A DNA stretch of 64,000 nt. Source: an uncultured Dehalococcoidales bacterium (lineage in GTDB: Bacteria; Chloroflexota; Dehalococcoidia; Dehalococcoidales; UBA2162). The DNA lies in contig CAZSHH010000004.1 of assembly GCA_964606525.1 (NCBI GenBank), positions 1,558-65,557 of the forward strand, in the 5' to 3' direction. This document shows, piece after piece, positions 5,909-62,003 of the stretch. The position numbers and the translations under genes were made by a program. Under the pieces are notes generated by a model that made no database searches, was not told the origin of the DNA, and saw nothing but the letters and a program-made list of their open reading frames with translations. Position 1 is the stretch's first letter. Each line of letters starts with the position of its first letter.

Positions 5909-6757
5909 GTGAGTACCAGGATTGTAACTGATAGCCTATCCGACCTGACCAGCGAAATGGCTGAGAAGCTTGATATTACAGTAGTACCGCTTACGGTTCT
6001 GTTCGGCCGTCAGACTTACCTGGACCGTGTTACCATTTCCACTGATGAGTTTTATGACCGCCTGGTGCATGGTTCCATCTGGCCGACGACAACTCAGCCA
6101 ACGCCTGCTGCGTTCGCCGAGGTTTTTAGTAAATTAGCTGATACTACTGATGAGATACTGGTCGTTACCCTTTCTCAAAAACTCAGCGGTACCTACCAGT
6201 CTGCCCTGGGTGCCAAACCCATGGTCAAGAAAAAGTGCCGTATTGAGGTAATTGATTCCGAAACGGTAGCCATGGGATTGGGACTTATCGTCATGGCGGC
6301 GGCAAGAGAAGCTAAAAAAGGTGCTGTTCTCAAGGAACTGGTAGAATTCGTCGGCCAGGCCAAATCGCGCTCTCATTTCATCGCTTATTTTGATACCCTG
6401 AAATATCTGGCTAAAGGCGGCCGTATCGGCAAAGCCCAGGGACTGTTAGGTTCATTGCTTTCTGTAAAACCATTATTGACTACCCGGGATGGCGAAATGG
6501 CGCCGGTAACCCGTGTCCGCTCATTGAATGCCGGTATGGATTATCTGTATAGTTTTGCCGCTCCATATATCGGCCGTATTGAAGCTATCGCTGTGGAACA
6601 CACTACGAACATTGAAGAAGCAGATAAGTTAACCGAAAGATACCGTGATATTGTCCCCAAAGACCGGATTTACCGTTCTACGGTAAGCCCGGTACTGGGA
6701 ACCTACGGAGGGCCCGGGGCCGTTGCCGTAACGGTCTTTGAAACCGCGGGCAAATGA
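5909..6757 (+). CDS. DegV family fatty-acid-binding protein
   Basis: 282-aa ORF with a GTG start. Typical DegV N-terminus (IVTDS.SDL) and length. SD GGGAGG lies upstream. Confidence 0.88.
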   Translation: MSTRIVTDSLSDLTSEMAEKLDITVVPLTVLFGRQTYLDRVTISTDEFYDRLVHGSIWPTTTQPTPAAFAEVFSKLADTTDEILVVTLSQKLSGTYQSALGAKPMVKKKCRIEVIDSETVAMGLGLIVMAAAREAKKGAVLKELVEFVGQAKSRSHFIAYFDTLKYLAKGGRIGKAQGLLGSLLSVKPLLTTRDGEMAPVTRVRSLNAGMDYLYSFAAPYIGRIEAIAVEHTTNIEEADKLTERYRDIVPKDRIYRSTVSPVLGTYGGPGAVAVTVFETAGK

Positions 6758-6760
6758 GCT

Positions 6761-9268
6761 GTGTCTCTGGATGCCAGTTCATTACGTAAGGTACTCCAGC
6801 TCGAAGCTGAAAAGGGCTGTCATGATTCTGCGGTTATCGGTGGTCTGGACCGGTTTTTGAACTCTTGTTTCGCCGGGCCTTCGGATTTGGCAGTCCGTTT
6901 TACTCAAGACAAGAACCTCCGCCAGCATTTTCTCCTTAAATCCGGTTATGCCGCGCTTGACCTGAAACAGCGCGCTGACTGGGTAAATAAAGCACTTTCG
7001 TTACTGGAAGAACCCGGTGGAATCAAGGCAGCCGGCGGCTCCAGGACGGAAACGGCTGCTAAACTGCCGCCGAAACCAATTGCCTTCAAGCACATATTAC
7101 ATTCACCCGCAGAAACGACCAAACACCTCAAACTATCTAAAACAGAAATTCCTAACCTTACCCTGGAAGCAGAGATTACGGTGATCAAAGGCATCAGTCC
7201 TAATATCGCTGCCCGCTTCCGTAAACTGGGGGTAAAAAATATCCGCGACCTGCTGTATTTTTTCCCCCGCCGCCACCTAGATTACAGCGACCGCCGTACC
7301 ATTTCGATGTTGTCCGAAGGCAAAGAAGAAACTATCGTTGCCAGTGTCTGGCAGGCCAAAGTAATCAACCTGGGCCGCCGGCGGAATACAGAAGCGATCG
7401 TGGGTGATGAGACGGGCAACGTTCGCGTCATCTGGTTCAACAATCCATATGTCGCCCGCAGCCTGAAAACCAACGACCGAATCATCATCAGCGGCCGTGT
7501 TTCCCTGTACCATGGGCAATATGTTTTTCAATCCCCGGAATGGGAACCGGAAGAGAGTGAGACTATTCACACCGGCCGCCTGGTTCCCCTCTACCGGCTG
7601 ACACAAGGATTGCGACCCCGCCAGGTAAGAAAACTGATGAAATTGGTCATTGACCAGCAATCTGGAAAATTTCCGGAATTTTTGCCCGGCGAAATTATTT
7701 CCCGGCAACATTTACTGGGCCTGGGCGAAGCCATCAGTAAAGCCCATTTCCCGGATGATATTGCACAAAAAAACCGTGCCCGGGAAAGGCTGGCTTTCGA
7801 TGAACTATTCCTGCTCCAGATAGGCGTTTTAAGTAAGAAACGGTCCTGGCAGGATAGCCAACCCGGTAGTGCCGTTGTCATAAATCGGGCAACCCGTATT
7901 ATCCTTGATAAGTTCATTAAAGCCCTGTCCTTCCATCTGACGGCTGCACAGGATAGGGCCCTACAAGAGATACTGGCCGATATGGCGAAACCCCGGCCTA
8001 TGTCTCGCCTATTACAGGGTGATGTTGGCAGCGGTAAAACCATCGTTGCCGCGGCGTCGCTGCTGGCGGCTGTCGCCAGCGGTTTTCAAGGTGCTTTTAT
8101 GGCCCCCACTGAAATCCTTGCCGAACAACACTTTAATACTCTTTCACAGTTATTGTCCAGGTCGGGGCAAAACACGCTTGAAGAGACCAACCTGCGTACC
8201 TATACAGGCTTGATGCCCGGTCCGGTAACGGTTGCCCTATTGACCGGAGACCTGGATGCCGCTACGCGGCGTTCGCTGCATCAGAAGATCCGCACCGGTG
8301 AGATCAACATTATCGTTGGTACTCATGCCATCATCCAAAAAGATGTCGCCTTCCACCGTCTCGGTGCTGCGATCGTCGACGAACAGCACCGTTTTGGCGT
8401 TACCCAGCGCCTTGCTTTGCGTCAGAAAGGGGCGAATCCCCATATCCTGGTTATGACTGCCACCCCCATTCCCCGTACTTTGGCTCTCACCATTTACGGC
8501 GATCTGGACCTGTCGGTCATTGACCAGATGCCGGCTGGCAGGCAGGTAATCAAGACGAAATGGTTGAGGCCGGAACAGCGGCCGGGCGCTTATAACTTTA
8601 TCCGCCGCGAAGTAGGTAAAGGCCGGCAGGCTTTCCTCATATGCCCACTCGTGGAAGAATCCGAAGCCGTGCAGGCCCGGGCTGCGGTGGCTGAATATGA
8701 ACACCTCTCCCGGGAAATCTTCCCGGACCTCAAGCTGGGGCTTGTACACGGCCGGATGACGGCAGGTGATAAAGACAGCGTCATGCGGCAGTTCCGGGCG
8801 GGTGAACTGAATATTTTAGTAGCGACCCCGGTCATTGAAGTGGGCATCGATGTCCCTAACGCTACCGTGATGATGATCGAAAGTGCCGACCGCTTTGGTT
8901 TATCCCAATTGCACCAGTTCCGGGGCCGGGTCGGGCGCGGTCCCGAGCAAAGCTACTGCATGCTGCTGGCGGAAGATCCCTCGGAAATCGGGCGCCAGCG
9001 TCTGGATATCATCGAGCGAGTTTATGATGGTTTTAAACTGGCCGAAGAGGATCTTAACTTGCGCGGCCCCGGTGAGTTTTTCGGTACCCGACAGAGTGGT
9101 TTGCCTGATTTACGGATGGCCCGGCTCTCCGATGTTGCCATCCTGGAAGCCGCCCGTAAAGAAGCTACCTTACTCTTTACACAAGACCCTCATCTGAAAA
9201 CGCCGCCGCACCTGGCTTTAGCTAATGAATTAGCCCGGATCTGGCCCGAATCTGCCGAATGGAGTTAG
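6761..9268 (+). CDS. recG: ATP-dependent DNA helicase RecG
   Basis: 835-aa ORF with helicase motifs GDVGSGKT, DEQHRFG, MTATPIPRT and QLHQFRGRVGRG. It has about 140 extra N-terminal residues compared with typical RecG. Confidence 0.95.
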   Translation: MSLDASSLRKVLQLEAEKGCHDSAVIGGLDRFLNSCFAGPSDLAVRFTQDKNLRQHFLLKSGYAALDLKQRADWVNKALSLLEEPGGIKAAGGSRTETAAKLPPKPIAFKHILHSPAETTKHLKLSKTEIPNLTLEAEITVIKGISPNIAARFRKLGVKNIRDLLYFFPRRHLDYSDRRTISMLSEGKEETIVASVWQAKVINLGRRRNTEAIVGDETGNVRVIWFNNPYVARSLKTNDRIIISGRVSLYHGQYVFQSPEWEPEESETIHTGRLVPLYRLTQGLRPRQVRKLMKLVIDQQSGKFPEFLPGEIISRQHLLGLGEAISKAHFPDDIAQKNRARERLAFDELFLLQIGVLSKKRSWQDSQPGSAVVINRATRIILDKFIKALSFHLTAAQDRALQEILADMAKPRPMSRLLQGDVGSGKTIVAAASLLAAVASGFQGAFMAPTEILAEQHFNTLSQLLSRSGQNTLEETNLRTYTGLMPGPVTVALLTGDLDAATRRSLHQKIRTGEINIIVGTHAIIQKDVAFHRLGAAIVDEQHRFGVTQRLALRQKGANPHILVMTATPIPRTLALTIYGDLDLSVIDQMPAGRQVIKTKWLRPEQRPGAYNFIRREVGKGRQAFLICPLVEESEAVQARAAVAEYEHLSREIFPDLKLGLVHGRMTAGDKDSVMRQFRAGELNILVATPVIEVGIDVPNATVMMIESADRFGLSQLHQFRGRVGRGPEQSYCMLLAEDPSEIGRQRLDIIERVYDGFKLAEEDLNLRGPGEFFGTRQSGLPDLRMARLSDVAILEAARKEATLLFTQDPHLKTPPHLALANELARIWPESAEWS

Positions 9269-42058: not shown

Positions 42059-42598
42059 ATGCTGGAAATTGCCGATACCATGCTCCTGGTAATTGATGTT
42101 CAGGAAAAACTATTCCGGGTCATGCATGATAAGGAAAACCTGTTGCTAAACCTGCAAAAATTATTACAGGGAATACAGGTTTTGGAAGTTCCAGTATTAG
42201 TGACCGAACAATACCCCCAGGGACTGGGTCCCACACTTCCCGACATCTCATCAATAATTCCGGGATTCGATCCGGTCTCCAAGATTAGTTTCAGCTGCTG
42301 GCAACATGATGAATTCAAAAACCGATTGATCAAGCAAAATCGTAAACAAATCCTTATTTCCGGTATCGAAGGACATATCTGCGTTTATCAGACTGCCTGT
42401 GATTTGATCAAGAACGGATATCAAGCCCATGTAGTAACGGATACGGTATCGTCCCGGACTTCCTTTAACCGCCAGCTTGCTCTTGATATGATGCAGCAAG
42501 CCGGTGCCCGGTTGACCGGAACCGAGACCGTGCTTTTCGAATTACTCAAGGCCGCCCAGGGAGATCAATTTAAAAAGATCAGCCAGATTGTCAAGTGA
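42059..42598 (+). CDS. isochorismatase-family (cysteine) hydrolase
   Basis: 179-aa ORF. LLVIDVQEK, ...ISGIEGHICV... (catalytic Cys context). SD GGAGGG. Confidence 0.82.
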   Translation: MLEIADTMLLVIDVQEKLFRVMHDKENLLLNLQKLLQGIQVLEVPVLVTEQYPQGLGPTLPDISSIIPGFDPVSKISFSCWQHDEFKNRLIKQNRKQILISGIEGHICVYQTACDLIKNGYQAHVVTDTVSSRTSFNRQLALDMMQQAGARLTGTETVLFELLKAAQGDQFKKISQIVK

Positions 42599-42616
42599 AA
42601 GGATAGTGACTATAAT
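42588..42616 (+). promoter_or_regulatory. candidate sigma-70 promoter P1 of selenoprotein gene 1
   Basis: TTGTCA, 17 nt, TATAAT. The -35 element lies in the last codons of the hydrolase gene. The 11-mer TATAATCATTA is shared with P2. Confidence 0.5.
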
Positions 42617-42723
42617 CATTAACAAAACATAGCAAGTTAACTCCGGGCAATTTTACCGATACCCTTTGATGATAACGACTAAATGACATCGATTTGACGA
42701 ATACTAAAGGAGAAGGAAGAGCC

Positions 42724-44481
42724 ATGCCAGCAAAAAAATTTAAATGCCTCAACCCTGTCGGTATCCAGGAACCAATCACGCTTTACCCTCTTGCACCGCG
42801 GCTAGATAAGCTTGACGGTAAAACGATCTATGTCAGCATCAATGCCGGCGGCGACCAGGACATTACGATTCCCTTACTCAAACGGCTGCCGCAGGACTAT
42901 CCTAATGTCAACTGGAAAATCAAGCGGCAGTTCGGATTCAGTGCGGAATTAACCGACGAAGAAAAAAAGGATGCCGATGCCGTCATCGCCGGCGTCATCT
43001 GGTGACACGGTGCGATCTGGGAACAGTTGTTCCAGGTTGCCGACAACGAACAGTCAGGTATTCCCACAGTGTCCATGCTGTATGCTGACCAGGATGAAGC
43101 CTTCGTCCAGGCCGGGAAAATGAGCGGTTCCCCCCACCTGCGCAGAATTCACGTTTCCCGCACTTTACCCGGGCCGGTGGACGTGGATGGCTTTATTGGG
43201 TCTTTACTGGACGGCTTGGTCCGGCCTCTAACTAAAGAAGAAAAATCCGGTGGTGTGTATGAGATCAATAATGACCGGATACTTTTTGAAGGAACGCTCG
43301 AAGCAGCCCAGGAATTTTACATGCAGTCCGAGAAGATCCCCACTCTCCGATATAATGCTCCGATCGCGAAATATACCGACGGCCTGCCCATCATCGTGCC
43401 CACGGAAGAACGGGTAGCGGCCATGCTCAAGGGTACCAGCCATAAACCGGACGAGTTTATCGTGCATCAAACCGACCGGGCGGAATTTGCTTTCCAGGCG
43501 AAAGGGCACAAGATAGAAAAAGGTACGCCGGTTAAGTTTATGCCGCTGAAACGTACGGCCACGGTCGAAAGAGTCGCCGTAAACGCGGTGATGGCCGGGT
43601 GCCGGCCGGAGTATTTCCCGGTAGTGCTGGCAATCGCTGAAGCGGGTGGGGGCGGTGGTTCAGATGGGCGGGGCAGCCAGGGCTACGTGGTCAGCGGTCC
43701 GATTTCCAAGGAAATCGGCATGAATTTCGATGTCGGTATCTTTGGCCCGGGTAACCCGGCGAACCGCAGTATCGGCCGGGCGGCCGAACTGATGTGGCGG
43801 AACTTCGGCGGCAACGTCCCGAATGTCACCAATGTGGGTGTAATGGGGTCACCACTGTTCAACTGCATTCCGGAAGACCTCGATAACCTCCCGCCGGGTT
43901 GGCGCGGCTTGAACGAAGAGTACGATTTCAAGCGCAGTGAAAGTATCATTTACGTGATGAACCTCGGCCGCGGCGGCACGACTAACATCCACCGCACCGA
44001 ATTTTCTCCCGGCGGATACCGTGCTTTCCAGAAATCCGGCCACGGTGGTATTGCCCGGCGCCTCGGGGTCAAAGGTGTACCCGGCTCTAAGAACTGGTTG
44101 GGCTATCTCATCCCCGGTGTCTGGCATGATCGTGAAGGCGGTATTACTTTCCTGATGCTGCCCCAGATGGCCCGCCATCTTTACGAAGCCGGTTTCAAGA
44201 CCAAGGACGAGGTCTATGAGTGGATCTACAAGCAGAGCTTCCGGCCGCTGCGCGAATACCGGACGCATTCCTGGGTCGATGTTAATACGGCCTCCTGGAC
44301 AGGTATCGAACGCACTTCCGGCAAACCCTGGAAGGAATTATCCGACGATTACCTGGTTCCCTTTGTGAACGATCCCTGGGAAAGCTGCATCATTGTCACT
44401 GGCGGCGGCGAAGAATATCCGCAATGGGTGGGTGCCCGCCGTCCTGGTATTAAACCTATCAATATCGACTACTGGCGCTAA
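42724..44481 (+). CDS. candidate selenoprotein, copy 1 (585 codons, in-frame TGA = Sec94 at 43003-43005)
   Basis: ATG at 42724 follows AAAGGAGAAGGA. The 93-aa and 484-aa ORFs of the track are in the same frame and are joined by TGA plus 7 conserved codons. A SECIS-like hairpin follows. A paralogue with identical architecture lies downstream. Confidence 0.75.
43012..43040 (+). promoter_or_regulatory. SECIS-like hairpin downstream of UGA (copy 1)
   Basis: GCGAUCUGG-G(bulge)-AAC-[AGUU]-GUU-CCAGGUUGC. 12 pairs including 2 G-U. The apical loop starts 19 nt after the UGA and contains GU. Confidence 0.6.
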
Positions 44482-44503: not shown

Positions 44504-44542
44504 AAGAAGCTGGAGGGAAAAATCCTCCAGCTTCTTTTTTCT
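44504..44542 (+). terminator. intrinsic terminator after selenoprotein gene 1
   Basis: AAGAAGCTGGAGG-gaaaaat-CCTCCAGCTTCTT followed by TTTTCTTT. Confidence 0.85.
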
Positions 44543-44592: not shown

Positions 44593-44621
44593 TTGTAAAG
44601 GTGTTGGATTGGCGATATAAT
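44593..44621 (+). promoter_or_regulatory. candidate sigma-70 promoter P2 of selenoprotein gene 2
   Basis: TTGTAA, 17 nt, TATAAT, followed by the same CATTA as P1. Confidence 0.5.
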
Positions 44622-44692: not shown

Positions 44693-46450
44693 ATGCCAGA
44701 AAGAAAATATAAGTGTCTGAATCCTGTTGGTATCCAGGACCCGGTAAAAATCTATCCTTTAGCTCCCAGGCTTGACAAGATCGACGGTAAGACCATCTAT
44801 GTCTGTATAAATGCCGGCGGCGACCAGGATATCACGATCCCGCTGCGCAAGCGGCTGCCCGCTGATTACCCGAACGTCAACTGGAAGATGAAGCTGAATT
44901 ACGGTTTCAGTGCTCAATTGACCGATGAGGAAAAGAAAGATGCTGACGCTGTGATTGCCGGCGTCATCTGGTGACACGGCGCTATCTGGGGACAGTTGTT
45001 CCAAGTAGCGGAAAATGAACAAGCCGGCATTCCAACCGTATCTCTACTATATGCCGACCAGGATGAATGTTTCCACCAGGCTGCGCTGATGAGTGGCTCT
45101 CCCAATCTCCGGCGCGTGCACGTATCCCGAACCCTCCAGGGGCCGGAAGATGTCGACCGTTTTCTGCCTGTGATGCTGGAGGCCCTGGTCCGTCCCTTAG
45201 CAAAGGATGAAAAGGCAGTTGGGAAGCTGGAACTGGCAGACGACAGGGTACTCTTTGAAGGTACCATGGAGGCAGCATATGAATTCTATACGCAGACGGA
45301 AAATATTGCTGCTCTGAAAAATAATGTACCGATCGCCAAGTATACCGACGGCCTGCCGATCGTGGTTCCTACGGAAGAAAAGGTGGCATTAATGCTCAAA
45401 GGTACCAGCCATAAAGCGGATGAATTGATCGTGCAAACCAGGGAACACGGCGGCTTGCCAATGGGCATGGGGGTACCCCGGAAGAAAGGCGACCCGGTCT
45501 TATTCCAACCGCTTAAAAGAAGAGCGACAGTGGAAAAAGTAGCGATCAATGCCGTGATGGCCGGATGTAAACCGGAATATATGCCTTTATTGCTGGCGAT
45601 CGCAGAAGCGGGCGGGGGCGGCGGTGGAGACGGCCGCGGCAGCCAGGCTTTCATCGTCAGCGGCCCTTATTCCAAAGAGATCGGTATGAACTGCGACGTC
45701 GGCATCCTCGGCCCGGGCAATCCGGCCAACCGGAGCATCGCCCGCGCCGCCGAACTGATGTGGCGCAACTTCGGGGGGAATATCCCTGCTGTCACCAACT
45801 GCGGCGTGATGGGAGCGCCGCTCTTCAACTGCATCCCAGAAGACCTCGATAATCTACCGCCGGGTTGGCGCGGTCTGAATGAAGAATACGATTACAAGAA
45901 AAACGAGAGTATCGTCTATGCTGCTAATATCGGGCGGGGCGGTTCTACCAACATTCACCGCACCGAATTCTCTCCGGGCGGCTACCGGGCTTTCCAGAAA
46001 TCCGGCCACGGCGGGATTGCCCGCCGTTTGGGCGTCAAAGGCAAACCCGGTCCCAAGAACTGGCTGGAATACATGCTGCCCGAACTCTGGGCCGGCCGTG
46101 AAGGCGGCATCACCTTCCTGATGCTGCCCCAGATGGCGCAAGCCCTCTGCGATGCCGGTTTCAAGACGAAGGATGAGGTCTACGAGTGGATCTATAAAGC
46201 CAGCTTCCGGACTGTCCGCGAATACCGCGCCCATTCCTGGCCTGATGTGCAGACCAACGCCTGGAATGCTGTAGAAAAAGTCTCCGGGAAGCCCTGGAAA
46301 GATCTGTCCGACGATGCCCTGGTGCCCTTTGTCAGCGAGCCTTATGAAAATTGTATTATCGTGACCGGCGGTGGCGAAGAGTATCCCCAGTGGCTGGGGG
46401 CCCGCCGGAACATGGGCAACCCGGCATACAGTATCGACACCTGGCGATAA
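44693..46450 (+). CDS. candidate selenoprotein, copy 2 (585 codons, in-frame TGA = Sec94 at 44972-44974)
   Basis: ATG at 44693 follows TAAGGAGA. Same split-ORF geometry and same frame (44693 and 44996 are both 2 mod 3). The flanks DADAVIAGVIW-TGA-HGAIW are identical to copy 1. Confidence 0.75.
44980..45010 (+). promoter_or_regulatory. SECIS-like hairpin downstream of UGA (copy 2)
   Basis: CGCUAUCUGG-G(bulge)-GAC-[AGUU]-GUU-CCAAGUAGCG. Same geometry as copy 1, with one C-A mismatch and one compensated pair. Confidence 0.55.
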
Positions 46451-46476: not shown

Positions 46477-46510
46477 AAAAAAGACCGGGGGTAACTCCCC
46501 GGTCTTTTTT
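46477..46510. terminator. bidirectional intrinsic terminator (selenoprotein gene 2 and DUF2812 gene)
   Basis: AAAAAGACCGGGG-gtaact-CCCCGGTCTTTTTTT, with an A-run upstream and a T-run downstream. Confidence 0.85.
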
Positions 46511-60074: not shown

Positions 60075-62003
60075 ATGACCAAGTGGCATGATCTAGTGGA
60101 AAAAGACGGCACAGTACCTTCGTGGCCGTACCCGATACGCTACGACCAGGAACAGGAAACTGAAACCGATGTATTAATTATCGGCGGAGGCATTGCCGGT
60201 TGTTGGGCCGCCATCAGCGCTGCCCGGACCGGTGTTAAGGTCACCCTGGTGGAAAAAGGCGACACCATCAGGAGCGGCGCCGGCGGGCCCGGTTGCGACC
60301 ACTGGTGCAACGTGCCGGCGAATCCTCATTCGAAAGTCGATCCTGATGATTGGGCCAGGCAGATCACAGAACGGCCAGGAGTTATGGGGCCGCTGGCCGC
60401 CCCGGTAAAAATATCCTACGCCAACGGCATCGGGAATCAAATCCAATGCCGCGAGGACTACGATACCTTGCTCGAGATGGAGCAAATGGGAGGCAAGATC
60501 AGAGATTCGCAGGACGAATATGTCGGTGCCGAAGGCCGGTACAACGATACCAAATTTATGCTCTCGCCGCGTTACAGCCCGAACCATGCTACCGAGGTCG
60601 TAATCCGTATCTGGGGCACGACTTTCAAACCAGCTTTGAAGCGTGAATGCAAGCGGTTGGGGGTGAAAATATTCGACCGCGTCATGGTTACCAGCCTGCT
60701 GACCGAGGGCGGCATCCAGGGCAACAAAGTGATTGGTGCCACCGGTTTCAACAACCGCACCGGGGAATTCATGGTCTTTAAGTCGAAAGCGGCGGTACTG
60801 TCGACCGCCGGCAATTATTCCCTGTGGCAACTTAATACCGAACTTGCCGGGCATAATACTTTCCGTTCCCGTACCATGACCGGCGACGGCATGGCGATGG
60901 CCTGGAAAGCAGGTGCGGAACTCACACTGATGGAACGCAGCGGCATCTTGATGCTGGGGACAGGTTATAAACATACCTGGTACGGCGGCGCCGGCGATGC
61001 CAGCTATGAAAATATTCAGCTTGTCGATGCCAATGGCAAGAAATTACCCTGGCCGACCCAGGGGTGGCCGGATGGCGGCGCCATGGGACCGCCGCCGGAT
61101 GTCCGCGAATCTATCCGTAAGGGGATTCAGACGGGCGAGTGGGCTCTTCCCTTTTATGGCGACTTCCCGGCCATGCCGGAAATCGAACGCCGGGCAACCT
61201 GGAAGCTCATGCTGGGCGAAGAATCCACGACTAAGATCATCACCGATACTTACGAGCGGGCGGGCTTCGACCCTGCCAAACACCTGCTCCAGAATTATAC
61301 TTTCATCGAAGGTACCAGTCCCCCCCACTGGCGGATCGTCAGCGGCAGCGGCCCCATCGTCGACTGGGACCTCAAATCCACCCTTGATGGGCTATATATC
61401 GCCGGGGAGCAGATGTTCTCTCACGGCGACCACAGCTATGCTGCCTCGACCGGCAGGTATGCCGGAAGAAAAGCTGCTGAACACGCCCGGCAGACCGGAG
61501 AATGCGCTGTTTCCCGTGACCAGGTAGCCCTGGAAAAAGCCCGCGTTTACGCCCCGATAAAACGGTCCGACGGTATTGATTGGAAAGAGTTGAATGCCGG
61601 CATCTCCCGGACCATGCAGTCTTTTTGCAGTGAATTTAAGACCGCATCCCTGTTGCAGATGGGACTTGATTCCCTGCAGGAAATAGAGGAAGTATTTGTC
61701 CCCAGGCTCTACGCCCTCGATCCGCACAAACTGATGCGCAGTATCGAAGACCTCAGCCTGCTGACTCACGGACAGATCATTTTGAATGCGTCCCTGGCCC
61801 GCAAAGCCAGCAGCCAGCTGCTCAACTTCTTCCGCATCGACTATCCCGAAGTGGACCCGCCGGAGTGGAATAAATTTGTGACCGTCAAAATGGAGAATAA
61901 CAAGGTCAAGGCTGGGGCATATCCGCTTAACTATTGGGGCGATATGAAAAAGAATTACGAAGCCCATAATAAAGACTATACCGGGGTCTACAATTACAAA
62001 TAA
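60075..62003 (+). CDS. FAD-dependent oxidoreductase, adenylylsulfate reductase alpha (AprA)/fumarate reductase flavoprotein-like
   Basis: 642-aa ORF. Dinucleotide fold DVLIIGGGIAGC. Overall collinearity with AprA, including the C-terminal ...R.DYPE.D..EW.KFV... segment. SD AAGGGAGGA. Confidence 0.78.
   Translation: MTKWHDLVEKDGTVPSWPYPIRYDQEQETETDVLIIGGGIAGCWAAISAARTGVKVTLVEKGDTIRSGAGGPGCDHWCNVPANPHSKVDPDDWARQITERPGVMGPLAAPVKISYANGIGNQIQCREDYDTLLEMEQMGGKIRDSQDEYVGAEGRYNDTKFMLSPRYSPNHATEVVIRIWGTTFKPALKRECKRLGVKIFDRVMVTSLLTEGGIQGNKVIGATGFNNRTGEFMVFKSKAAVLSTAGNYSLWQLNTELAGHNTFRSRTMTGDGMAMAWKAGAELTLMERSGILMLGTGYKHTWYGGAGDASYENIQLVDANGKKLPWPTQGWPDGGAMGPPPDVRESIRKGIQTGEWALPFYGDFPAMPEIERRATWKLMLGEESTTKIITDTYERAGFDPAKHLLQNYTFIEGTSPPHWRIVSGSGPIVDWDLKSTLDGLYIAGEQMFSHGDHSYAASTGRYAGRKAAEHARQTGECAVSRDQVALEKARVYAPIKRSDGIDWKELNAGISRTMQSFCSEFKTASLLQMGLDSLQEIEEVFVPRLYALDPHKLMRSIEDLSLLTHGQIILNASLARKASSQLLNFFRIDYPEVDPPEWNKFVTVKMENNKVKAGAYPLNYWGDMKKNYEAHNKDYTGVYNYK

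What the first reader, a model, noticed from the sequence alone, without database searches (positions are those of the whole stretch)
42724..43300. Sec region resembles the GrdB/PrdB selenoprotein B architecture but lacks the UxxCxxC cysteines, and is fused to a large unassigned domain
The local pattern is ...EEKKDADAVIAGVIW-U-HGAIWEQLFQVADNEQSGIPTV.... That is a beta-strand, then Sec at the start of a helix, then a GIP(T/V)V strand.

From memory this parallels the Sec region of glycine/betaine/sarcosine/proline reductase protein B (...DAVILTST-U-GTCTRCGATMVKEIE..GIPVV...). However, no Cys lies within 10 residues of the Sec in either copy.

The remaining ~480 aa carry motifs YTDGLPI(I/V)VPTEE, AVNAVMAGC(R/K)PEY, AEAGGGGG.DGRGSQ, PLFNCIPEDLDNLPPGWRG and CIIVTGGGEEYPQW. 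I cannot assign this part to any family.

Cys residues conserved in both copies are C8 (KCLNP), the AGC, the FNC and the (S/N)CIIV cysteine. Any of them could be a resolving partner. Together this points to a redox enzyme with a domain combination I do not recognise.
Basis: inference. Interest (0 to 1): 0.7.

Follow-up and report, generated by a model that had tools for sequence, protein, structure and literature searches.

The report
Cysteine-less UGSC-type selenoprotein fused to partner
Two tandem genes each encode a 585-residue selenocysteine protein: a divergent copy of the little-understood "UGSC" selenoprotein module, which has lost its usual partner cysteine, fused to the unannotated domain that accompanies UGSC across bacteria, so it is a new variant of a known but uncharacterised family.

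Summary
Genes 42724-44481 and 44693-46450 each have an in-frame TGA at codon 94. A full-length homolog has Cys at that position, and a covarying hairpin starts 9 nt downstream. About 95-105-aa and 484-aa fragments of the family fill metagenome databases as split "hypothetical proteins".

The N-terminal ~165 residues are a divergent UGSC-family domain (PF24696/NF041046). They score below the curated cut-offs. A UGSC profile built without this clade still finds them (E 1e-10 to 1e-13).

UGSC domains give weak but repeated matches, apparently in register at the Sec, to GrdB/GrdF/GrdH/PrdB models.

Nearly all other UGSC domains surveyed carry U-x-x-C. This Dehalococcoidales clade has W-U-[H/S]-[G/N]-A, and most members have gained a Cys at position 8.

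The C-terminal ~370-residue core has no Pfam, NCBIfam or PDB match. It is nevertheless UGSC's regular partner: it was fused to or adjacent to a UGSC domain in 72 of 80 genome loci. Its VMAGC cysteine is nearly invariant.

Most likely this is a single-chain Sec-dependent redox enzyme. Its substrate is unknown. It is a new variant of a known kind.

The parts
42724..44481 (+). Gene A: 585-codon selenoprotein gene (UGSC-like domain fused to the partner domain), read through the UGA at codon 94
   Evidence: Translation. Full-length Cys homolog P0045. Gene callers split the family at the TGA.
42707..42712 (+). Shine-Dalgarno-like AAGGAG, 11 nt upstream of the gene A ATG
   Evidence: Read directly from the sequence.
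42588..42616 (+). Promoter-like site (TTGTCA-17-TATAAT, 11 of 12 matches) upstream of gene A
   Evidence: Consensus scan. This is a consensus match only.
42745..42747 (+). Cys8 codon (KCLNP). This Cys is specific to the clade and is a candidate substitute partner thiol.
   Evidence: Cys in 112 of 120 N-terminal fragments of the clade. Cys in only 1 of 69 UxxC-type UGSC domains.
42748..43203 (+). Gene A UGSC-like domain (about aa 9-160)
   Evidence: Pfam UGSC match below threshold, E 0.003. A UGSC HMM built without this clade scores 40-48 bits, E 1e-10 to 3e-13. End-to-end alignment A8.
43003..43005 (+). Gene A UGA = Sec94
43012..43040 (+). Gene A SECIS-like hairpin (12-bp stem with one bulge, AGUU loop)
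   Evidence: MFE fold. Conservation and covariation in 14 homologs.
43372..44478 (+). Gene A conserved core of the partner domain (from YTDGLP to the C-terminus). It has no Pfam, NCBIfam or PDB match.
   Evidence: Alignment A7 across phyla. No family hits. No PDB hit by sequence or by fold.
43600..43602 (+). Cys293 codon (AVNAVMAGC), nearly invariant across the whole partner superfamily
   Evidence: Invariant in A2. At least 90% conserved in A7. 118 of 119 in the clade.
44504..44536 (+). Intrinsic-terminator-like hairpin plus T-run after gene A
44593..44621 (+). Promoter-like site (TTGTAA-17-TATAAT) upstream of gene B
   Evidence: This is a consensus match only.
44693..46450 (+). Gene B: tandem paralog (75% aa identity to gene A) with the same architecture
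44717..45178 (+). Gene B UGSC-like domain
44972..44974 (+). Gene B UGA = Sec94
44981..45009 (+). Gene B SECIS-like hairpin
45341..46447 (+). Gene B partner-domain core (Cys292 codon at 45566-45568)
46477..46510 (.). Terminator-like hairpin after gene B. The scan reports the 14-pair stem on the minus strand and a shorter 5-pair stem on the plus strand at 46487-46499.
42059..42598 (+). Isochorismatase-family gene immediately upstream. It is a recurrent neighbour, but it is not shown to be functionally linked.
   Evidence: Pfam match. The same family lies next to paralog P0108 and again about 3 kb upstream in L081, and it also occurs in L017 and L074.

Best explanation
Each gene encodes one polypeptide in which UGA94 is decoded as selenocysteine.

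Residues ~9-160 are a divergent UGSC-family domain. This is a flavodoxin-like alpha/beta module that carries the Sec between a beta-strand and a helix. It is distantly homologous to the Sec-bearing region of selenoprotein B-type reductases (GrdB/GrdF/GrdH/PrdB).

Residues ~217-585 are the conserved but unannotated domain that accompanies UGSC throughout bacteria. In Proteobacteria and Acidimicrobiia it is encoded by the adjacent upstream gene and has its own thioredoxin-like CxxC domain. In Dehalococcoidales, Acidobacteriota and others it is fused to UGSC.

Inferred mechanism: the C-terminal domain binds an unknown substrate and supplies the near-invariant Cys293 (VMAGC). Sec94 is the redox-active nucleophile that attacks the substrate or the oxidised Cys293. 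The resulting selenenylsulfide (or Se-adduct) is resolved by Cys293 or by the clade-specific Cys8, because this clade has lost the +3 Cys of the canonical UxxC motif. An external thiol system then reduces it.

What is shown: Sec decoding, domain identities, the UGSC-partner linkage, loss of UxxC and gain of Cys8. What is inferred: the redox-pair chemistry, the identity of the resolving Cys, the electron donor and the substrate.
For: Sec decoding:
- In-frame TGA with conserved sequence on both sides.
- Cys homolog P0045.
- SECIS-like hairpin with covariation.

UGSC identity:
- Pfam PF24696 E 3e-4 to 3e-3.
- An independent UGSC HMM that excludes this clade gives E 1e-10 to 3e-13.
- Full-length alignment with the Sec in the same column.
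- An intermediate fused form in Acidobacteriota passes the Pfam threshold (99 bits) and carries U-G-G-C.

Link to selenoprotein B:
- 13 of 28 UGSC domains hit TIGR01917 (best E 1.5e-5); 11 hit GrdF, 9 hit TIGR01918, 7 hit GrdH and 6 hit PrdB. The only other family hit more than once is the thiol oxidoreductase DsbE, 2 of 28.
- On an ungapped estimate the Sec-equivalent maps to about model position 346-349 of GrdB and 148-149 of PrdB. The PrdB Sec is U151 in C. difficile (PMC11229817).

Partner linkage:
- A UGSC domain is fused to or adjacent to the partner domain in 72 of 80 loci.
- Proteobacterial partners carry a Trx/redoxin-type N-terminal domain.
- selA and selB lie beside the gene pair in six alphaproteobacterial loci.

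Conserved Cys: VMAGC is invariant or nearly so.

Clade-specific change: the motif is UxxA in all 14 clade sequences examined, and UxxC in nearly all other Sec- or Cys-bearing UGSC domains. Cys8 is present in 112 of 120 clade fragments, against 1 of 69 other UGSC domains.
Against: - No direct GrdB/PrdB match for the window protein itself.
- The UGSC match is below the curated cut-offs.
- No substrate, cofactor or fold assignment for the C-terminal domain.
- Distances between Sec94 and Cys8 or Cys293 could not be measured, and the Sec loop is low-confidence in the model.
- Cys8 is replaced by F or Y in some clade members (L001-L003).
- One Acidobacterial paralog has VMAGA instead of VMAGC.
- Gene neighbourhoods of the Dehalococcoidales clade are variable, so they give no pathway.
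Confidence: 0.6

Rival explanations
1. Sec94 is a ligand or carrier rather than a redox nucleophile. Together with the clade-conserved cysteines (C8, C126, C293, C371, C381, C555), it binds a metal or Fe-S centre, or carries a persulfide or selenium species.
For: - The UxxC partner Cys is lost while several clade-specific Cys are conserved.
- The Cys-form homolog P0045 lies directly downstream of NifS-like (Aminotran_5) and NifU_N genes.
- Ferredoxin and FAD/Fe-S oxidoreductase genes recur near paralogs.
Against: - There is no canonical cluster-binding motif.
- Only Cys293 is conserved across the wider superfamily.
- Gene A itself lacks C126 and C371.
- Most other UGSC clades keep a classical UxxC redox motif.
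Confidence: 0.15
2. It is a selenoprotein-B-type substrate reductase in the strict sense. The C-terminal domain carries an electrophilic cofactor, for example a Cys-derived pyruvoyl group made by cleavage at VMAG|C. Sec94 attacks a substrate carbon, as in proline or glycine reductase.
For: - UGSC is distantly homologous to the GrdB/PrdB Sec region.
- In Prd, the Sec subunit works with a Cys-derived pyruvoyl subunit (PMC11229817).
- The partner domain has a near-invariant Gly-Cys.
- Neighbours across the superfamily are small-molecule catabolic genes: SDR in 11 loci, family III CoA-transferase in 9, AMP-binding in 4, TctC in 4 and isochorismatase in 3.
- Etf genes lie upstream in the window.
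Against: - None of 41 partner-domain sequences hit a PrdA or GrdE model, even at E <= 1.
- In the model the Cys lies between two helices. From my own knowledge, known pyruvoyl cleavage sites sit in loops between strands; I did not test this comparison.
- No PrdH-like gene was looked for or seen.
- One paralog has Ala at the Cys position.
Confidence: 0.15
3. It is a generic thioredoxin-fold thiol:disulfide oxidoreductase for antioxidant defence, as UGSC proteins have been loosely classed in reviews.
For: Reviews list UGSC among proteins that exhibit or 'likely' have a Trx-like fold (PMC2398784; PMC13188914). Proteobacterial partners carry a real Trx-like domain.
Against: - The model of the N-domain is a parallel beta-alpha-beta sandwich. 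Its best, though weak, fold matches are CheY-, TIR- and flavodoxin-like, not thioredoxin.
- There are no Trx-family HMM hits for the window protein.
- The CxxC/UxxC motif is absent.
- A conserved ~370-residue catalytic-looking domain is attached.
Confidence: 0.08
4. The TGA is a genuine stop. There are two separate genes (93 aa and 484 aa), or the gene is a pseudogene.
For: All public annotations call two ORFs.
Against: - Codons between the TGA and the first possible downstream start (HGAIWEQL) are conserved.
- A Cys-containing single-chain homolog exists.
- The hairpin covaries.
- The same TGA column is found in hundreds of homologs and in the UGSC family.
- The downstream ORF would need a TTG start, and I saw no ribosome-binding-like sequence before it in the DNA.
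Confidence: 0.02

Closest known systems
UGSC family (seleno)protein (Pfam PF24696, NCBIfam NF041046; 'UGSC-containing protein' of Zhang and Gladyshev 2008)
   Same: - Same domain from end to end (LNP.G...APRL..L.GKTIY ... DAVI..V..-U-....E..GIPTV ... G.P..R).
- The Sec is in the same alignment column.
- Mostly Sec rather than Cys.
- Always linked to the same partner domain.
- Function unknown.
   Different: - Scores below the curated thresholds (18-21 bits against 25; 12-17 against 125).
- The motif is W-U-H-G-A rather than D-U-G-S-C(xxC).
- The HP(I/L)(G/Q) motif after the second strand is also lost.
- Fused to the partner instead of being a stand-alone protein of about 170 aa.
- Most members have gained a Cys at position 8.
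Fused UGSC-partner proteins of Acidobacteriota and Chloroflexota (e.g. L011 5530-7326); possibly the 'UGSC/Unknown_1 fusion' of the GOS study
   Same: Same two-domain order, and the Sec lies at the same place.
   Different: - They keep UxxC (UGGC, USTC) and pass the Pfam UGSC threshold.
- L011, the one whose N-terminus I read, has a Tat-like signal peptide.
- They are only about 30% identical in the C-domain.
- They lack the clade-specific GGGGG.DGRGS and KSGHGGIARRLGVKG segments.
Selenoprotein B of glycine, sarcosine, betaine and D-proline reductases (GrdB/GrdF/GrdH/PrdB; PF07355, TIGR01917/01918, TIGR04483)
   Same: - Strand-Sec-helix-GIPxV strand layout.
- UGSC domains give repeated weak matches, with the Sec near the Sec position of those models on an ungapped estimate.
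- The Sec module works with a separate catalytic subunit or domain (mechanism: PMC11229817).
   Different: - No direct HMM match for the window protein.
- No UxxCxxC.
- The partner is unrelated, by sequence, to the pyruvoyl subunits PrdA and GrdE.
- No grd or prd genes were found among the neighbours scanned.
Proteobacterial 'TlpA family protein disulfide reductase' of about 528 aa (e.g. WP_293360934.1, Phenylobacterium), with a downstream UGSC gene
   Same: The C-terminal ~370 residues are the same domain as in the window protein, including TDGLP..PPT.E and AINAVMAGC.PEY.
   Different: - It has an N-terminal redoxin domain (CxxC) and an RPGCGS linker in place of a fused UGSC.
- UGSC is a separate gene.
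- selA and selB are adjacent.

Membership tests
Bacterial selenoprotein gene (general) | An in-frame UGA with coding conservation on both sides, and a Cys-containing homolog aligned at the UGA | tested here: met
   Other Cys forms occur in the wider family (L023, L043, L063).
Bacterial selenoprotein gene (general) | A SECIS-like stem-loop just 3' of the UGA | tested here: met
   Hairpin at +9 to +37 nt. 78% of cells paired against 35-49% in slid controls. Six pairs show changes on both sides. None of 500 shuffles reached the observed percentage paired or covariation score. Rfam has no matching family.
Bacterial selenoprotein gene (general) | The genome encodes SelA, SelB, SelD and tRNA-Sec | not testable with these tools
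   None of these is in the 64-kb window, and the rest of the genome is not available.
UGSC family (PF24696 / NF041046) | Match to the family HMM at the curated cut-off | tested here: not met
   PF24696: 18.1 and 21.3 bits against a cut-off of 25. NF041046: 12.4 and 16.9 bits against 125. A custom UGSC HMM that excludes this clade gives 40-48 bits, E 1e-10 to 3e-13 in a small database. Homology is therefore supported, but curated membership is not.
UGSC family (PF24696 / NF041046) | Sec or Cys at the conserved column between the central strand and the helix | tested here: met
   Alignment A8 and hmmalign.
UGSC family (PF24696 / NF041046) | U-G-S-C (UxxC, often UxxCxxC) motif | tested here: not met
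   The motif is W-U-[HS]-[GN]-A in all 14 clade sequences.
UGSC family (PF24696 / NF041046) | Linkage to the conserved partner domain. This feature was established here; it is not part of the curated definition. | tested here: met
   The window protein is a fusion. The linkage was seen in 72 of 80 loci.
Selenoprotein B (GrdB/GrdF/GrdH/PrdB) | Match to PF07355, TIGR01917, TIGR01918 or TIGR04483 | tested here: not met
   No hit for the window proteins at E <= 1. Only their UGSC relatives give weak hits, E down to 1.5e-5 and far below the cut-offs.
Selenoprotein B (GrdB/GrdF/GrdH/PrdB) | UxxCxxC motif | tested here: not met
   No Cys within 10 residues of the Sec.
Selenoprotein B (GrdB/GrdF/GrdH/PrdB) | Pyruvoyl partner subunit (GrdE or PrdA) and a grd or prd operon | tested here: not met
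   The neighbours are EtfB, EtfA, TetR, isochorismatase, DUF2812 and PadR. The C-domain has no PrdA or GrdE similarity.
Thioredoxin-fold oxidoreductases | Trx fold with a CxxC/UxxC active site | tested here: not met
   No Trx-family HMM hit. The model is a flavodoxin-like parallel alpha/beta fold with CheY, TIR and flavodoxin-type fold neighbours at weak E. The motif is absent.

The most novel reading that the evidence does not exclude
UGSC plus its partner domain is a widespread and so far unrecognised selenoprotein-B-type enzyme system. The partner domain alone has about 3,600 clusters at 50% identity.

In this reading a PrdB/GrdB-like Sec module serves a catalytic domain of a fold absent from the PDB. 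That domain possibly carries a Cys293-derived electrophilic cofactor.

The Dehalococcoidales clade would then be a radiated, single-chain version, with several tandem paralogs per genome. It has re-wired the catalytic cycle by discarding the UxxC resolving Cys. The clade would be a family of substrate-specific reductases that explains part of the large, unannotated selenoproteomes of Dehalococcoidia.
Probability: 0.2. Interest if true: 0.85.

Novelty: new variant of a known kind. Interest (0 to 1): 0.6.

Why it matters
UGSC has been one of the most abundant selenoprotein families in aquatic metagenomes since 2008, yet it has no known function. Reviews still class it as 'Trx-like'.

Three results here make that question testable:
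- UGSC has an obligate partner domain, fused or adjacent, that no curated library describes.
- UGSC is distantly related to the Sec region of glycine and proline reductase protein B.
- A large Dehalococcoidales clade runs the same two-domain machine without the canonical UxxC cysteine.

There is also a practical consequence. Thousands of these genes are split into two 'hypothetical proteins' in public annotation. The clade falls below the Pfam and NCBIfam UGSC thresholds, so current selenoproteome counts for Dehalococcoidia probably miss it.

Tried and rejected
- **Direct family assignment of the C-terminal domain.** Pfam and NCBIfam scans of the window proteins and of 41 diverse relatives at E <= 1 gave only UGSC and Trx hits from the appended domains. 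PDB sequence searches with a single sequence and with profiles found nothing. Foldseek of the AF2 model against the PDB gave no match below E 0.01, only generic alpha/beta hits to the N-domain.
- **Structure prediction of the window protein itself.** I modelled the natural Cys homolog P0045 instead.
- **Alignments mixing N- and C-terminal fragments.** MAFFT misaligned them (A3, A5), so I tuned the mix of sequences in the sandbox.
- **Model coordinates.** They are not exposed, so Sec-Cys distances could not be measured.
- **Conserved neighbourhood with the window's Etf, TetR and isochorismatase genes.** tblastn against the 80 loci found none. Five further Dehalococcoidales contexts were variable.
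- **Literature.** There is no functional study of UGSC. The GOS supplementary figure of the UGSC/Unknown_1 fusion is an image. Haft and Tolstoy 2025 is not held.
- **Rfam.** It found no SECIS family in the window, only a tRNA-Gly.
- **The DegV/RecG pair.** These are in the same frame across a TGA (5909-9268). I checked them and dismissed them as two ordinary genes.
Full report
**1. The observation**

The window holds two tandem paralogous genes on the plus strand, 42724-44481 (gene A) and 44693-46450 (gene B). They are 75% identical at the protein level.

Each gene has:
- a Shine-Dalgarno-like sequence;
- a promoter-like site upstream (42588-42616 and 44593-44621);
- a terminator-like hairpin downstream (44504-44536 and 46477-46510).

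Each is interrupted by one in-frame TGA at codon 94.

**2. Is the UGA a selenocysteine codon?**

Four independent lines say yes.

- *Database pattern.* A search with the joined protein returned 2,921 relatives among 8,000 scored candidates. Of the best 120, 119 are fragments of about 420-500 aa that begin just after the TGA. The one full-length protein, P0045 (585 aa, 59% identical), reads ...GVVW-C-HGAIWEQ....
- *N-terminal fragments.* A search with the N-terminal part returned more than 110 separate ORFs of 95-105 aa. They end in GV(V/I)W, immediately before a stop. Gene callers therefore split this family systematically.
- *RNA structure.* The 29 nt that start 9 nt after the UGA fold into a hairpin with an AGUU loop. 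In 14 family members from 11 loci, 78% of the base-pair cells are standard pairs, against 35-49% when the 3' partners are slid. Six of 12 pairs show changes on both sides. None of 500 column shuffles reached the observed percentage paired or covariation score. One compensatory pair couples a synonymous GAA/GAG change to a Phe/Pro codon change, which is hard to explain by protein constraint alone.
- *Family alignment.* The codon aligns with the Sec of an established selenoprotein family (section 3).

TGA also ends the neighbouring gene 42059-42598, so it is a normal stop in this genome. The window has no selA, selB or tRNA-Sec, so co-occurrence with the Sec machinery could not be tested.

**3. 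The N-terminal domain is a divergent UGSC domain**

Pfam gives only a sub-threshold hit to PF24696 (UGSC) over residues 9-146: E 3e-3 and 3e-4, 18-21 bits against a cut-off of 25. NCBIfam gives a weaker hit to NF041046.

To test this independently I scanned one genome per GTDB species for relatives of the C-terminal part. That scan gave 585 confirmed stretches, of which 80 loci were kept. I then translated the loci in six frames with TGA read through.

Starting from a bona fide UGSC selenoprotein of Phenylobacterium (ALAD-U-GSCTTC; PF24696 E 2.7e-50), I built a UGSC profile from 63-72 domains. All Dehalococcoidales-type loci and the window were left out. The profile finds both window proteins over about 135 residues at E 1e-10 to 3e-13, 40-48 bits.

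The alignment is colinear from LNPVG to the end of the domain. The Sec sits in the same column.

An intermediate form links the two. Acidobacterial proteins have the same two-domain order, and the one I read in full (L011) also has a Tat-like signal peptide. They read AIGH-U-GGC, and they pass the Pfam UGSC threshold at 99 bits.

**4. Relation to GrdB/PrdB**

The window protein itself gives no hit to any selenoprotein-B model. UGSC domains do.

Of 28 diverse UGSC domains scanned one by one against NCBIfam at E <= 1:

| Model | Domains matching | Best E |
|---|---|---|
| TIGR01917 (GrdB) | 13 | 1.5e-5 |
| GrdF | 11 | 5.7e-5 |
| TIGR01918 | 9 | 2.9e-4 |
| GrdH | 7 | 6.5e-4 |
| TIGR04483 (PrdB) | 6 | 3.8e-5 |

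The only other family hit more than once is DsbE, 2 of 28.

In six domains the Sec-equivalent residue maps consistently, on an ungapped estimate from the ends of the matched stretch, to about model position 346-349 of GrdB, 350-351 of GrdF and 148-149 of PrdB. The Sec of C. difficile PrdB is residue 151 (PMC11229817). From my own memory, GrdB Sec is near residue 350. I could not view the residue-level alignments.

Canonical UGSC is in fact U-GS-C-TT-C, which is the UxxCxxC pattern of GrdB (PMC13188914).

Reviews still describe UGSC as a probable Trx-fold protein (PMC2398784, PMC13188914). The AF2 model of P0045 (pLDDT 82, pTM 0.85) instead shows a parallel beta-alpha-beta domain with strand 91-96, the Sec position at 99, helix 103-115 and strand 120-125. 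Its only fold neighbours, all weak, are CheY-, TIR-, flavodoxin- and Rossmann-like.

**5. What is specific to this clade**

Nearly all the other Sec- or Cys-bearing UGSC domains recovered have a Cys at +3: UGSC, UGGC, USTC, UGAC, UGTC, UGHC and others. The exceptions are a Streptomyces UGTS form (L029) and a Cys-form CGTS (L043). Two further domains have lost the Sec/Cys altogether (L019 has Ser, L056 has Gly).

All 14 Dehalococcoidales-type sequences examined have W-U-[H/S]-[G/N]-A. The HP(I/L)(G/Q) motif of UGSC is also gone.

Conversely, the residue just before LNP is Cys in 112 of 120 clade N-terminal fragments and in 9 of 13 clade genome loci. It is Cys in only 1 of 69 UxxC-type domains, where it is I, L, V or A.

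Within the clade the conserved cysteines are:
- C8;
- C126, in 95 of 119;
- C293, in 118 of 119;
- C371, in 105 of 119;
- C381, in 96 of 119;
- C555, in 109 of 119.

Gene A has lost C126 and C371. Gene B keeps them.

**6. The C-terminal domain**

From YTDGLP onward (about residue 217 to the end) the protein matches nothing in any of these searches:
- Pfam or NCBIfam, for the window protein or for 41 relatives at E <= 1;
- PDB by sequence or by profile;
- PDB by fold.

It is nevertheless a large family. A profile search of 1.84 billion cluster representatives found 3,605 clusters at E <= 1e-3 and 1,928 at E <= 1e-10.

Its conserved blocks across phyla are:
- TDGLP(I/L)(V/I)PPT.E.V..ML.GT;
- TVEK.A.NAVMAGC.PEY.PV..A;
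- NGPIR...GMN...GA.GPGN.AN.TIGRA..L..RN.GG;
- E.E..SPW.PL.

The Cys of VMAGC is nearly invariant.

The key finding is its linkage to UGSC. In 72 of 80 loci a UGSC domain is either fused to its N-terminus or encoded by the next gene downstream.
- Fused: Dehalococcoidales, Acidobacteriota, other Chloroflexota, some Bacillota and Desulfobacterota.
- Adjacent: Alpha-, Beta- and Gammaproteobacteria, Acidimicrobiia and Myxococcota.

In the unfused form the partner has its own N-terminal redoxin/TlpA-like CxxC domain and an RPGCGS linker. NCBI accordingly names it 'TlpA family protein disulfide reductase'.

In six alphaproteobacterial loci selA and selB lie beside the pair. Longer non-Sec relatives are again UGSC fusions, and all are annotated 'hypothetical'.

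The 2008 GOS paper mentions a 'UGSC/Unknown_1' fusion. This is probably the same architecture, but I could not verify it.

**7. Context**

The window region consists mostly of housekeeping genes:
- FakA, DegV, RecG, Clp, NadE and ProRS;
- PheST, IF3, ThrRS, EF-G and MutS.

Directly upstream of gene A are etfB, etfA, a TetR regulator and an isochorismatase-family gene.

None of these neighbours is found in the 80 genome loci. The contexts of five other clade members differ from one another. An isochorismatase-family gene does recur, in L081 (twice), L017 and L074.

Tandem paralogs are typical of the clade:
- two or three copies in L003, L004 and L005;
- four UGSC-partner pairs interleaved with SDR genes in L082, only one of them of the window's UxxA type;
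- at least three copies in the complete 2.33-Mb genome CP070800.

Across the whole superfamily the recurrent neighbours are:
- SDRs, in 11 loci;
- family III CoA-transferases, in 9;
- URO-D-like genes, in 5;
- acyl-CoA synthetases, in 4;
- TctC, in 4.

This pattern looks like small-molecule metabolism rather than stress defence.

**8. Mechanism**

*Shown here:*
- a Sec in a selenoprotein-B-like module;
- its permanent coupling to a domain with one near-invariant Cys;
- coupling to a Trx-like CxxC domain in the unfused versions;
- loss of the +3 Cys and gain of Cys8 in this clade.

*Inferred.* Sec94 is the nucleophilic redox centre. It acts on a substrate held by the C-terminal domain, or on Cys293 itself. 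The Se-S (or Se-C) intermediate is resolved by Cys293 or Cys8 in place of the missing UxxC Cys. An external thiol system regenerates the enzyme.

The rival readings are a Sec-ligated metal or sulfur carrier, a strict Prd/Grd-like mechanism with a Cys-derived pyruvoyl group at VMAG|C, a generic Trx-like oxidoreductase, and two separate genes. Each is set out under rival explanations with the evidence for and against it.

**9. Verdict**

The finding is real.

It is a new variant of a known but functionally uncharacterised kind. Three by-products may matter more than the variant itself: the UGSC-partner linkage, the UGSC-selenoprotein B homology, and a large mis-annotated Dehalococcoidales radiation.

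Noticed in passing
L047 3332-7550 (Phenylobacterium); also L037, L044, L049, L051, L058, L059, L076: In Alphaproteobacteria, selB lies immediately upstream of the partner gene and the UGSC gene, and selA lies nearby on the opposite strand. This suggests UGSC may be the selenoprotein for which the Sec machinery is kept in these organisms.
   Followed up: partly
L082 2086-11449: Four UGSC-partner gene pairs lie within 9.4 kb on one Dehalococcoidales contig, interleaved with three short-chain dehydrogenase genes.
   Followed up: partly
L005 3896-11475: One MAG carries two UxxA-type paralogs in tandem. They are followed by a third fused paralog that keeps a UxxC motif (GG-U-DGC) and an SDR gene, so both motif types coexist in one genome.
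   Followed up: no
L011 5530-5640 (Acidobacteriota): The Acidobacterial fused form I read in full starts with a twin-arginine-like signal peptide (MNRRQLLSLLGISPALLATPAEA). That suggests a periplasmic location, unlike the signal-less window proteins. I did not check the related loci L012-L016 and L022-L024.
   Followed up: no
window 43099-43101 and 43834-43836 (gene A residues 126 and 371): Gene A has Ala126 and Val371 where 80-88% of the clade, including gene B, has Cys. The two tandem copies may therefore not be functionally equivalent.
   Followed up: partly
Contig of P0045 (JGI sample 3300075153; no DNA held): The only full-length Cys form found sits directly downstream of a NifS-like aminotransferase (Aminotran_5) and a NifU_N gene. 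It sits upstream of a gene pair encoding FAD_binding_2 (649 aa) and Fer4_20/Pyr_redox_2 (596 aa).
   Followed up: no
window 60075-62003; L084 10607-14367: The window encodes a 642-aa FAD_binding_2 protein that is 44% identical to the one next to paralog P0081. It lies 13.6 kb from gene B and has no Fer4_20/Pyr_redox_2 partner, so the link may be coincidental.
   Followed up: partly
window 42059-42598; L081 6612-7259 and 11518-12186; L017 3876-4799: Isochorismatase-family hydrolase genes recur next to UGSC-partner genes in unrelated contexts.
   Followed up: partly
window 5909-9268: DegV (5909-6757) and RecG (6761-9268) are in the same frame and are separated only by a TGA. Pfam shows two complete, unrelated proteins, so this is ordinary gene adjacency and not a Sec site.
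   Followed up: yes
L023 179-1924: A Cys-form Acidobacterial paralog (H-C-STC) has VMAGA in place of the otherwise near-invariant VMAGC. It may be a degenerate copy.
   Followed up: no
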